A stretch of DNA of 64,000 nt, taken from the human T2T-CHM13v2.0 reference genome, Homo sapiens. Below, piece after piece: positions 51,252 through 58,738 of the stretch. Location of the stretch: the NCBI RefSeq assembly GCF_009914755.1, contig NC_060925.1; one strand, given 5' to 3'. The translations under genes and the position numbers were made by a program. The notes under the pieces were generated by a model, which saw nothing but the letters and a program-made list of their open reading frames with translations, was not told where the DNA came from and ran no database searches. How positions within the stretch are numbered: the first letter of the stretch is position 1; the number at the start of each line of letters is the position of its first letter.

Positions 51252-51971
51252 CAGTCTACCTTCTTTTTTACACCTTTCAGAGACCTTTCATGATTGCCTG
51301 CTGAATTATTTTAAGGGTAGTTAATTGTATTTAAAGAGGAGGAACAGGGAAAAGTGTGTTTATGCCATCTTTACAATTGATTTTTATATATTGATTTTCT
51401 CCCTCTCCTGGGACTTTTACTATCTATATTTGTATGCATGAGGACTTTCATATGTCTCTGAGGCTCTATCCTTTCTCCTCCTCCTTCTCCTCCTTCTTTT
51501 CTCTTTTTTTTTTTTTTTTTTTTTTGCTCTTGAGATTGGATAATTTCTACTGATTTATCTTCAAGTTTGCTGATTTTTTTATAAGCACAAATCTGCTGTT
51601 AAACCTTCTTTCATAAATTTTTTATTTCAGTTATTGTACTTTTCAACTGTAGAATTTTCATTTTGTGTTTTTAAAATAATTTTTATTTATTGACATTCTC
51701 TATTTGATGAGTCAGTATTGTCATACTTTTAAGTCTTTAAAGATGGTTTCCTGTAGTTCTGTGTAAATATTTATATGTACTGCTTTCTTGGCTAAGTCCA
51801 AAATCTGGACCCTCAGAGATGGAATCTTTTTTCTGCTTTTTTTCCTATTGATGGAACACGCTTTTCTATTTCTTTTTTTTTTTTTTTGTGGATAACTTGA
51901 TATTTTGAAAATATATTGTAACAATTCTGAATTCTGATTCCCCCAGGGTATCTGTTGTTGTTGTTGTTTTT

Positions 51972-52299
51972 ATGAAGAAAGAGGTTTAATTGACTCACAG
52001 TTCCACAAGCTGTACAGAAGCATGGCTGGGAGGCCTTAGGAAACTTACAATCATGGTGGCAGGTGAACGAGAAGCAAGCACGTCTTACCGTGGCAGAGCA
52101 GGAGAGAGCGTGCAAAGGGGGAAGTGCCATACACTTTTAAACCATGAGATCTCATGAGAACTCACTCACTATCACAAGAATAGCAAAGGGGAAATCTGCA
52201 CCCATGATTTAATCACCTCCCACCAAACCTCTTCTCTGACACGTGAGGATCACAGTTTGGGTTGAGATTTGGGTGGGGACACAGGGCCAAGCTTTATCA
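51972..52299 (-). mobile_element. MSTA LTR truncated at its poly(A) site (within putative L1 transduction)
   Basis: gaggtttaattgactcacagttccacaagctgtacagaagcatggc...gatttgggtggggacacag; U5 absent, replaced by T/(GTT)n tail. Confidence 0.88.
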
Positions 52300-52889
52300 A
52301 CCACCACTGCAGTTGGCAGTGTTCAGCAGATAACAAGACACCTGAGAGGTGGAGGCATGAGAGGCATCTTGTCTCCTCTAGCTCCTCATGCCTTACACAA
52401 CAGGAGAGCCCAGTCTGTTTCATATTAAGGAAGAAAACATGGGAAAAGCTACTAAACAAATGATTAAAAACTGAAATCAAGACAGCTGCCATTACAAGTC
52501 ATTTGAAAGCCCCCAGAGTTGTTAAATCTCAGGCTGGGAAAGGAGTTCTGTTCACCGTCACTTCACTCATTGCCTCACTAAATTTTCTGGTTTTTTTTTT
52601 TTTTTTTATACTTTAAGTTCTAGGGTACACGTGCAAAACGTGTGCAGGTTTGTTACATAGGTATACATGTGCCCCATTGGTTTGCTGCACCCATTAACTT
52701 GTCATTTACATTAGGTATTTCTCCTAATGCTATCCCTTCCCCGTACCCGCCCAATGACAGGACCCAGGGTGTGATGTTCCCCACCCTGTGTCCAGGTGTT
52801 CTCATTGTTCAATTCCCACCTATGAGTGAGAACATGCGGTGTTTGGTTTTCCGTCCTTGTGATAGTTTGCTCAGAATAATGGTTTCCAG

Positions 52890-56586: not shown

Positions 56587-56649
56587 TATGATGTTAGCTG
56601 GTTATTTTGCTCATTAGTTGATGCAGTTTCTTCATAGCATTGATGGTCT

Positions 56650-57665
56650 TTACAATTTGGCATGTTTTTGCAGTGGCTGGTACCAGTTGTTCCTTTCCAT
56701 GTTTAGTGCTTCCTTTAGGAGCTCTTGTAAGGCAGGCCTGCTGGTGACAAAATCTCTCAGCATTTGCTTGTCTGTAAAGGATTTTATTTCTCCTTCACTT
56801 AGGAAGCTTAGTTTGGCTGGATATGAAATTCTGGAATGAAAATTCTTTTCTTTAGGAATGTTGAATATTGGCCCCCACTCTCTTCTGGCTTGTAGAGTTT
56901 CTGCCCAGAGATCTGCTGTTAGTCTGATGGGCTTCCCTTTGTGAGTAACCCGACCTTTCTCTCTGGCTGCCCTTAACATTTTTTTCCTTGATTTCAACTT
57001 GGTGAATCTGACAATTAATTGTCTTGGGGTTGCTCTTCTCGAAGAGTATCTTTGTGGTGTTCTCTGTATTTCCTGAATTTGAATGTTGGCCTGCTTTGCT
57101 AGGTTCAGAAAGTTCTCCTGAATAATATCCTGAAGAGTGTTTTCCAACTTGGTTCCATTCTCCCCGTCACTTTCAGGTACACCAATCAAGCATAGATTTG
57201 GTCTTTTCACATAGTCCCATATTTCTTGGAGCCTTTGTTCATTTCTGTTTACTCTTTTTTTCTCTAAACTTCTCTTCTCACTTTATTTCATTAATTTGAT
57301 CTTCAATCACTGATACCCTTTCTTCCACTTGATCGAATTGGCTATTGAAGCTTGTGCATGTGTCATGTAGTTCTTGTGTCATGGTTTTCAGCTCCATCAG
57401 ATCATTTAAGGTCTTCTCTGCACTGTTTATTCTAGTTAGCCATTCATCTAATCTTTTTTCAAGGTTTTTAGCTTCCTTGCGATGGGTTCGAACATCCTCC
57501 TTTAGCTCAGAGAAGTTTGTTATTGCCGACCTTCTGAAGCCTACTTCTGTCAGCTCATCAAAGTCATTCTCCGTCCAGCTTTGTTCCATTGCTGGTGGGG
57601 AGCTGCGATCCTTTGGAGGAGAAGAGGTGCTCTGGTTTTTAGAATTTTTCAGCTTTTCTGCTCTG
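56650..57665 (-). pseudogene. L1 ORF1p, disrupted
   Basis: Fragments 57278-57589 and 56650-57210 (KRPNLCLIGVPESDGENG...RISYPAKLSF). Confidence 0.92.
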
Positions 57666-58738
57666 GTTTCTCCCCACCTTTGTTGTTTTATCTGCCTTTG
57701 GTGTTTGATGTTGGTGATCTACAGATGGGGTTTTGGTGTGGATGTCCTTTTTATTGATGTTGATGCTATTCCTTTCTGTTTACTAGTTTTCTTTCTAACA
57801 GTCAGGTCCTTTAGCTGCAGGTCTGTTGGAGTTTGCTGGAGGTCCACTCCAGACCCTGTTTGCCTGGGTATCACCAGCGGAGGCTGCGGAACAGCAAATA
57901 TTGCTGCCTGATCCTTCCTCTGGAAGCTTCATCCCAGAGGGGTACCTGCCTGTATGAGGTGTCAGTCAGCCCCTACTGGGAGGTGTCTACCAGTTAGGCT
58001 ACAAGGGGGCCAGGGACCCACTTGAGGAGGCAGTCTGACCATTCTCTGAGCTCAAACACCATGCTGGGGGAACTACTGCTCTCTTCAGAGCTGTCAGACA
58101 GGTATTTTTAAGTCTGCAGAAGTTTGTGCTCCCTTTTGTTCAGGTATGCCCTACCCCCAGAGGTAGAGTCTACAGAGGCAGTAGGCCTTGCGGAGCTGCA
58201 GTGGGCTCTGCCCAGTTCAAGCTTCCCCAGCCGCTTTGTTTACCTATTCAAGCCTCAGCAATGGTGGTTGCCCCTCCCGCTGCCAGGCTGCTGGCCAATC
58301 TTAGACTGCTGCACTAGCAGTGAGCAAGGCTCCATGGGTGTGGGACCTGCCAATTCAGGCACCAGATATAATCTTCAGGTGTGCCATTTGCTAAGACCAT
58401 TGGAAAAGTGCAGTATTTGGGTGGAAGTGTCCTGTTTTTCTAGGTACCATCTGTCACAACTTCCCTTGGCTAGGAAAGGGAAATCCCTTGACCCCTTGTG
58501 CTTCCCACGTGAGGCGACACCCCACCCTGCTTCGGCTCACCCTCCATGGGCTGCACCCACTGTCCAACCTGTCCCAGTGAGATAAGCCAGGCACCTCAGT
58601 TGGAAATGCAGAAATCACCCATCTTCTGCGTTGATCATGCTGGGAGCTGCGGACTGGAGCTGTTCCCATTTGGCCATCTTGTAATGGAATCCATTTGTTG
58701 TTGTTTTTGTTTGTTTCTTTATTTTTTGAATTAATTCT

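What the first reader, a model, noticed from the sequence alone, without database searches (positions are those of the whole stretch)
51950..58708. Full-length L1PA with a ~620-bp 3' transduction polyadenylated at an MSTA LTR poly(A) site
Seen: the L1 poly(A) at 52591 has no TSD matching the L1 5' flank. Downstream on the L1 strand come ~290 bp of unique DNA (52300-52590) and a co-oriented MSTA LTR. That LTR stops ~13 nt after its ATTAAA (51985-51990), lacks U5, and is followed by a decayed A/(CAA)n tail. The whole block is bracketed by atctgttgttgtt (51950) and atttgttgttgtt (58693), and the old host L1M seems to resume beyond it. Established: L1 read-through and downstream polyadenylation produce 3' transductions, and MaLR LTRs supply poly(A) signals. 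Inference: this fixed insertion copied an LTR plus unique DNA from a source L1 elsewhere, so the source element should be traceable.
Basis: partly seen in the sequence, partly recalled or inferred. Interest (0 to 1): 0.8.

Follow-up and report, generated by a model that had tools for sequence, protein, structure and literature searches.

The report
Old L1 with traced 3' transduction
A dead full-length L1 retrotransposon carried about 620 bases of neighbouring DNA, ending at the poly(A) site of an old LTR, from chr1:204.11 Mb to this spot; this is an ordinary, well-known kind of event, except that the donor site no longer holds an L1.

Summary
A complete but dead L1 lies on the minus strand (58692-52608), followed by 17 A, then CC, then 289 bp of DNA found only twice in the genome. 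Next comes a MaLR-type LTR cut 12-16 nt after its ATTAAA, lacking about 51 nt of U5. A 13-nt duplication (12 of 13 identical) brackets the whole block, and an old host L1 continues on both sides.

The donor was found: chr1:204,114,539-204,115,159 of the same assembly matches the 620 bp (54 mismatches in 616 aligned bases). There the LTR is complete (383 bp, TG..CA ends, 5-bp duplication GTGGT) and runs on past the cut point. So the copy went from donor to window through polyadenylated RNA.

The best reading (about 0.72) is a classical 3' transduction from a source L1 that never reached fixation:
- The donor boundary is an endonuclease-like site (TT|AGAA), matched by 1% of positions.
- This L1 lacks the AATAAA or ATTAAA that 12 of 12 relatives carry.
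- The L1 and the transduced DNA look equally old.

Rivals are a template-switch chimera or a second retrocopy landing in the L1 tail. Known kind of event; low interest.

The parts
58693..58708 (.). 5' copy of the target-site duplication. It abuts the L1's first base. The core 13 nt is 58693-58705; in the longer register it runs to 58708.
52608..58692 (-). Full-length, dead, primate-type L1 of about 6.09 kb.
   Evidence: ORFs are shattered; the longest open stretch is 210 aa. Pfam finds Transposase_22 (E 1e-55), Tnp_22_dsRBD, Exo_endo_phos and RVT_1. The 5' start is shared with 10 of 11 relatives. The 3' 791 bp is 90-91% identical to 39 of 39 scored non-self genomic hits.
52591..52607 (-). The L1's own A-run (17 A), now internal. 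The L1 end reads ..AAAGTAT + A17, with no AATAAA or ATTAAA.
   Evidence: All 12 of 12 related L1 3' ends have AATAAA or ATTAAA at this place.
52589..52590 (-). Two bases (CC on the L1 strand) between the A-run and the start of donor homology. The donor has TT here. Origin unexplained.
   Evidence: alignment.
52300..52588 (-). Transduced low-copy DNA of 289 bp. It includes the upstream GTGGT copy of the LTR's own duplication at 52304-52300.
   Evidence: 2 places in the genome; 19 mismatches in 288 aligned bases against the donor.
51969..52299 (-). MaLR (MST/THE1-type) LTR, U3-R only, cut at its poly(A) site.
   Evidence: There are 35 mismatches in 328 aligned bases against the donor LTR. The donor and 7 of 9 other copies continue with about 51 nt more.
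51985..51990 (-). ATTAAA poly(A) signal of the LTR, used for 3' end formation.
   Evidence: ATTAAA is present in 5 of 9 other copies. The donor now reads ACTAAA.
51963..51968 (-). AA plus CAAC: either a remnant of the poly(A) tail or extra CAA units of the duplicated tract.
51950..51962 (.). 3' copy of the target-site duplication.
51560..51949 (-). Host: an old L1 (region around the ORF1 start and 5'UTR, by recall), left of the block.
   Evidence: 740 candidates, 69-78% identity..
58706..58738 (-). Host old L1 resuming on the right of the block. It continues at 59055-59246 after an Alu.

Best explanation
This is a classical L1 3' transduction whose source element has been lost.

Inferred sequence of events:
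1. A full-length L1 once sat at chr1:204,114,538/9 (CHM13), inserted at a TT|AGAAAA endonuclease site.
2. It sat 289 bp upstream of a solo MaLR LTR in the same orientation.
3. Its own poly(A) signal was defective, so transcription ran through its genomic A-run and the 289 bp into the LTR.
4. The RNA was cleaved 12-16 nt after the LTR's ATTAAA.
5. L1 proteins inserted this roughly 6.7-kb RNA by target-primed reverse transcription into a T/G-rich tract of an older L1 at chr1:67.88 Mb. This produced a 13-16-nt duplication.
6. The offspring became fixed and decayed. The source allele never reached fixation, so today's donor locus is the empty (pre-insertion) allele.

Shown here: donor and copy, the direction of copying, the cut at the poly(A) site, the duplication around the whole unit, and host continuity.

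Inferred: that an L1 once stood at the donor, and that the missing hexamer was inherited from it.
For: Donor locus:
- It matches 617 of the 619 query bases at E 8e-246.
- It is the only other copy of the unique part.
- Its LTR is complete, with TG..CA ends and GTGGT on both sides, and continues past the window's cut point.

Structure in the window:
- The duplication brackets L1 plus 620 bp, not the L1 alone (controls).
- The host element is continuous across the block.
- The L1 is complete to its first base, as expected for a copy of a full-length transcript.

Donor boundary: homology starts exactly at TT|AGAA. Only 100 of 9,980 positions in the 10-kb donor locus match the TT|AAAA endonuclease preference (a recalled consensus) as well.

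Poly(A) signals:
- The window L1 lacks the AATAAA or ATTAAA that 12 of 12 related L1 ends carry. This gives a direct reason for read-through.
- No canonical hexamer lies between the boundary and the LTR signal in the donor.

Same age:
- L1 private differences from the column majority of 12 relatives are 32 of 764 (4.2%).
- Transduced DNA against the donor has 54 mismatches in 616 bases (8.8% for two lineages).

Polymorphic sources exist: non-reference source L1s that gave transductions are documented in PMC9311842 Table 4 (passages read).
Against: - No L1 lies at or within 8 kb upstream of the donor boundary in this assembly. A search with the donor junction found only itself and the window. 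The key actor is therefore inferred, not seen.
- Two bases (CC) between the A-run and the donor homology are not explained by a clean read-through.
- Hardly any poly(A) tail follows the LTR cut (2-5 A).
- The missing hexamer could be a later T-to-A change in the window copy.
- The age comparison is rough: the relatives are best hits, and the majority state is not the true master sequence.
- Presence or absence in other primates was not testable.
Confidence: 0.72

Rival explanations
1. Template-switch chimera made in one insertion event. Reverse transcription started on a cellular RNA that was polyadenylated at the LTR site of the donor locus. After about 620 nt it jumped to the 3' end of a polyadenylated full-length L1 RNA and copied it to its first base. 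No L1 ever stood at the donor.
For: - The donor has no L1.
- Two extra bases (CC) sit at the junction, as non-templated additions at template jumps would give (recalled).
- A single duplication brackets the whole unit.
- L1 chimeras with other RNAs are known (Law and Burns preprint; abstract and outline read).
Against: - The junction falls on an endonuclease-like site that only 1% of donor positions match. A jump point has no reason to do so.
- The L1 part lacks a canonical poly(A) signal, unlike 12 of 12 relatives, so a separately polyadenylated L1 RNA is less likely.
- Per the abstract, the best-known chimeras are U6 snRNA joined to L1, and the methods headings of that preprint define partners lying 5' of the L1. 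That the L1 in such chimeras is usually 5'-truncated is recalled, not read here. In the window, the L1 is full-length and sits on the 5' side.
- It needs an unseen transcript.
Confidence: 0.1
2. Two separate events. The L1 inserted first with its own duplication. Later a 5'-truncated retrocopy of an LTR-terminated cellular RNA landed in the L1's A-tail in the same orientation. The L1's duplication therefore appears to bracket both.
For: - The donor has no L1.
- A-tails are good endonuclease targets (recalled).
- CC could be filler at a 5' junction.
Against: - A second insertion into the A-tail should leave its own tail, a duplicated A-stretch and the rest of the L1 tail after the 620 bp. Only 2-5 A are there, while 17 pure A remain upstream.
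- The L1 and the 620 bp look equally old.
- The truncation point coincides with an endonuclease-like donor site (1% of positions).
- The prior is low: an exact hit in a tail of about 20 nt, in the same orientation.
Confidence: 0.1
3. DNA-level duplication or gene conversion moved the 620 bp next to the L1, with no RNA step.
For: Both loci are on chromosome 1.
Against: - Homology ends exactly at the LTR's poly(A) cleavage zone, 12-16 nt after ATTAAA, and exactly at the L1 A-run.
- The loci are 136 Mb apart.
- No flanking homology extends on either side.
Confidence: 0.02

Closest known systems
L1 3' transduction: read-through of the weak L1 poly(A) signal and use of a downstream signal. First shown in cell culture and found in genome surveys around 1999-2000 (recalled). 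Catalogued in CHM13 by Hoyt et al. (preprint passages read: 183 highest-confidence L1 3' events).
   Same: - L1 with its own A-run.
- Co-oriented non-L1 DNA ending at a second poly(A) signal.
- One duplication around the whole unit.
- The extra DNA maps to one other locus.
   Different: - The donor locus holds no L1 in this assembly, so the parent is inferred.
- Almost no terminal A-tail.
- Two unexplained bases at the junction.
- The downstream signal is supplied by a MaLR LTR, and the L1's own hexamer is missing.
Transductions from non-reference (polymorphic) source L1s, as mapped in human populations (PMC9311842, passages read).
   Same: The source element is absent from the assembly in hand, while its downstream flank is present as an empty site.
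   Different: Those are recent L1HS events with sources still segregating. This event is old (non-CpG distance 0.078 between copy and donor), so the source must have been lost outright.
L1 chimeric retrocopies such as U6/L1, made by template switching or RNA ligation (Law and Burns preprint; abstract and outline read).
   Same: Two RNAs in one orientation inside a single duplication.
   Different: In the best-known chimeras the partner lies 5' of the L1 (abstract and headings; 5' truncation of that L1 is recalled). Here a full-length L1 with an A-run lies 5' of the partner, and the junction sits on an endonuclease-like donor site.

Membership tests
L1 3' transduction | An L1 3' end with its own A-run, followed by non-L1 DNA in the same orientation. 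| tested here: met
   A17 at 52607-52591, then 620 bp of donor-derived DNA.
L1 3' transduction | The extra DNA ends shortly after a poly(A) signal. | tested here: met
   ATTAAA lies at 51990-51985. Homology to the donor LTR ends 12-16 nt later.
L1 3' transduction | A terminal poly(A) tail follows the extra DNA. | tested here: inconclusive
   Only 2-5 A that the LTR does not account for. The following (CAA)n overlaps the duplicated host tract.
L1 3' transduction | The target-site duplication brackets L1 plus extra DNA, not the L1 alone. | tested here: met
   12 of 13 (or 13 of 13 in another register) at the outer ends, against 7 of 13 next to the A-run. Controls: 2 of 20,000 and 8 of 698.
L1 3' transduction | The extra DNA maps to a donor locus, where it continues beyond the poly(A) site. 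| tested here: met
L1 3' transduction | A source L1 lies directly upstream of the donor DNA. This is corroborating; catalogues that name a parent element require it. | tested here: not met
   blastn found no L1 within 8 kb upstream. The junction search found nothing else.
L1 3' transduction | The whole block is absent as one piece at the orthologous site of older lineages. | not testable with these tools
   No other primate genome is held.
Full-length primate L1 (L1PA-type) | ORF1, endonuclease and RT domains in order on one strand, plus the family-typical 5' and 3' ends. | tested here: met
   All frames are broken. The subfamily number was not determined.
MaLR (MST/THE1-type) solo LTR | TG..CA termini, a 5-bp duplication, many dispersed copies, and a poly(A) hexamer near the 3' end. 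| tested here: met
   Donor L011 8328-8710 with GTGGT at 8323-8327 and 8711-8715. 7,644 candidates, of which 38 scored LTR-only copies (self and the donor aside) are 80-84% identical. ATTAAA in 5 of 9 copies.
MaLR (MST/THE1-type) solo LTR | Assignment to subfamily MSTA. | not testable with these tools
No repeat consensus library is available.
Template-switch L1 chimera | The partner RNA is joined at a point unrelated to L1 endonuclease sites, and the L1 RNA is separately polyadenylated. | tested here: inconclusive
   The junction is on an endonuclease-like site (1% of positions) and the L1 lacks a canonical hexamer. Both argue against. The CC filler and the empty donor are compatible.

The most novel reading that the evidence does not exclude
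The unit could be a single-event chimera with no source L1 at all. L1 reverse transcriptase started on an LTR-terminated cellular RNA from chr1:204.11 Mb. It added two bases at the end of its copy, then switched onto the poly(A) end of a full-length L1 RNA. That would be a '3'-side partner' class of L1 chimera that mimics transduction, and it would mean that some 'parentless transductions' in genome catalogues are not read-through products.
Probability: 0.1. Interest if true: 0.45.

Novelty: new member of a known kind. Interest (0 to 1): 0.25.

Why it matters
It is a clean, fully dissected textbook case. It shows a retrotransposon moving 620 bp of host DNA 136 Mb along chromosome 1, with an old LTR supplying the transcript's end and a visibly defective L1 poly(A) signal as the likely cause. 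The donor site without an L1 illustrates that fixed offspring can outlive their source. This bears on how transduction catalogues that require a parent element undercount old events. It has no evident effect on genes: the block lies antisense in an intron of the lncRNA GNG12-AS1, according to the annotation supplied with the finding.

Tried and rejected
(1) Sibling transductions. A search with the unique 290 bp gave only the window and the donor: 2 of 2 candidates, both scored.

(2) A source L1 at the donor. blastn of the whole window block against 10 kb of the donor locus found only the 620 bp and Alu-type matches.

(3) The idea that the first 11 nt of the L1 (GGATTCCATTA) are filler or a 5' transduction. 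Rejected, because 10 of 11 related full-length copies start the same way.

(4) Host continuity by whole-genome search with the right flank. 59037-59335 is nearly unique, and 59336-59520 is a different old repeat. Continuity was shown instead by comparing 8 host-family copies directly.

(5) I suspected from memory that the donor boundary lies inside an old MIR-type repeat, which would show an unscarred empty site. A search with L011 7930-8130 found no other copies, so this stays untested recall.

(6) Literature.
- The 2003 paper on families of L1s sharing transduced sequences is not held, so I could not check how often donor sites lack an L1.
- The published Hoyt et al. paper is not held under the id I tried. 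The preprint passages were read, but its supplement tables are closed, so I cannot say whether this locus is already listed there.

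Full report
**What is in the window**

On the minus strand the sequence reads, 5' to 3', as follows:
- host DNA ending ...AAAAACAACAACAAAT (58708-58693);
- an L1 that starts at 58692;
- the L1 3' end ...AAAGTAT near 52608;
- 17 A (52607-52591);
- CC (52590-52589);
- 289 bp of non-repeat DNA (52588-52300);
- an LTR that starts with TG at 52299 and ends ...AATTAAACCTCTTTCTTCATAAA at 51969;
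- AA, then (CAA)n ending ...AACAACAACAGAT (51962-51950);
- host DNA again.

**The L1**
- It is real and dead. Stop-to-stop frames on the minus strand are at most 210 aa.
- The frames carry L1 ORF1 domains (Transposase_22, E 1e-55; dsRBD-like; trimerisation), endonuclease and RVT_1.
- It is complete to its first base. In some searches, 10 of 11 related full-length copies begin with the same GGATTCCATT-type start, right where their flanks diverge.
- Its 3' 791 bp is 90-91% identical to all 39 scored non-self hits.

**The duplication**
- The 30 nt 5' of the L1 share at best 7 of 13 with the 40 nt after the L1's own A-run.
- Control on the window: such a match appears for 2 of 20,000 random point pairs at the same spacing, and for 8 of 698 pairs whose 13-mer is T/G-rich. 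The match is unlikely by chance even allowing for low complexity.

**The host**
- The left flank is an old dispersed repeat: 740 candidates at 69-78% identity. From recall it looks like the region around the ORF1 start of an ancient L1, on the minus strand.
- Eight copies that reach the junction continue beyond it and are alike there.
- 7 of 8 carry one T/G-rich tract at exactly that point.
- L015 and L017 also match window 59164-59246 in mutually consistent register (E 5e-5 and 1e-7).
- An Alu with its own 18-nt duplication (17 of 18) lies between.
- The host therefore continues on both sides. At most 2-5 A can be a poly(A) tail.

**The donor locus**
- A search of the window's own assembly with 51972-52590 found one long match besides itself: C1:204,114,539-204,115,156, covering 617 of 619 bases at E 8e-246. 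The other 38 scored full-length hits cover only the LTR part, at 80-84% identity.
- The unique 290 bp has exactly two places in the genome.
- In the fetched donor (L011) the match is 8039-8659.
- There the LTR is complete: 8328-8710, 383 bp, TG..CA ends, GTGGT on both sides.
- It runs on for about 51 nt past the point where the window copy stops, as do 7 of 9 other family copies.
- ATTAAA is present at the signal position in 5 of 9 other copies. The donor now reads ACTAAA, and the window keeps ATTAAA.
- The window copy keeps only the upstream GTGGT.
- The copy therefore went from donor to window through an RNA cleaved at the LTR's poly(A) site.

**What was not found**
- Upstream of L011 8039 there is no L1. 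blastn of the entire window block against the 10-kb donor locus gave only the 620 bp and Alu-type hits.
- A search with the donor junction found only itself and the window, from query base 110 onward.

**Choosing between explanations**

Three observations favour a lost source L1 over a template-switch chimera or a second insertion into the L1 tail.
1. Homology starts at TT|AGAA. Only 100 of 9,980 donor positions fit the recalled TT|AAAA endonuclease preference as well. A former L1 insertion site should look like this; a random truncation or jump point should not.
2. The window L1 ends ...AAAGTAT plus A-run and has no AATAAA or ATTAAA. All 12 of 12 related L1 ends have one there. If inherited from the source, this explains obligatory read-through to the next signal. 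The donor has no canonical hexamer before the LTR signal.
3. Ages agree.
   - Copy against donor: 54 mismatches in 616 bases (p 0.088, K2P 0.095, non-CpG JC 0.078).
   - The L1 has 32 private differences in 764 columns relative to 12 relatives (4.2%, about half).

Against the nested-insertion rival, almost no A-stretch follows the 620 bp, while 17 pure A remain upstream.

Against my preferred reading:
- The source L1 is not seen.
- The CC dinucleotide at the junction is unexplained.
- The hexamer loss could be a later change.
- The age test is rough.

I put the lost-source transduction at 0.72, the chimera at 0.10, the nested retrocopy at 0.10 and DNA-level copying at 0.02.

**Comparison with what is known**

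L1 3' transduction is long established (recalled).
- The CHM13 repeat paper reports 183 highest-confidence L1 3' events and speaks of identified parents (preprint passages).
- Population work lists non-reference source L1s (PMC9311842, passages).

The structural criteria are met here. The corroborating criterion of a parent element is not met, and the outgroup criterion could not be tested.

**Verdict**

This is a new, well-resolved member of a known kind. It is of modest interest, mainly as an example of a fixed offspring whose parent was lost and of an LTR supplying the transcript end for an L1 with a broken signal.

Noticed in passing
window 58739-59036 (minus strand); duplications at 58721-58738 and 59037-59054: An Alu lies about 30 bp from the L1's 5' end. 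It has a poly(T) on the plus strand and an 18-nt target-site duplication matching 17 of 18. It splits the host old L1 a second time.
   Followed up: partly
window 52213-52208 (minus strand): A second ATTAAA lies inside the window's LTR copy. The donor reads ATTGAA at that position, so this hexamer probably arose by a later change and was not available when the RNA was made.
   Followed up: partly
L011 8651-8656 (donor, chr1:204.115 Mb): The donor LTR's poly(A) hexamer now reads ACTAAA, while the window copy and 5 of 9 family copies have ATTAAA. The donor signal has decayed since the event.
   Followed up: partly
window 59336-59520: A different old dispersed repeat (36 candidates; most of the 35 non-self hits cover this part, at 67-77% identity) begins about 300 bp to the right of the Alu. 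Its family was not identified.
   Followed up: no
L007 1501-1830 and 2576-2900 (G000:C12:62.297 Mb): Two copies of the same LTR family lie in opposite orientation about 750 bp apart.
   Followed up: no
L006 about 1493-1816 (G000:C3:101.35 Mb): This LTR copy is interrupted just after the hexamer region by what looks like an Alu in reverse orientation. It resembles the window's cut only superficially.
   Followed up: no
window 58250-58692 against 52610-53400: The L1 5'UTR is only 84-86% identical to its best genomic relatives, while the 3' end is 90-91%. This fits faster CpG decay of the 5'UTR.
   Followed up: no
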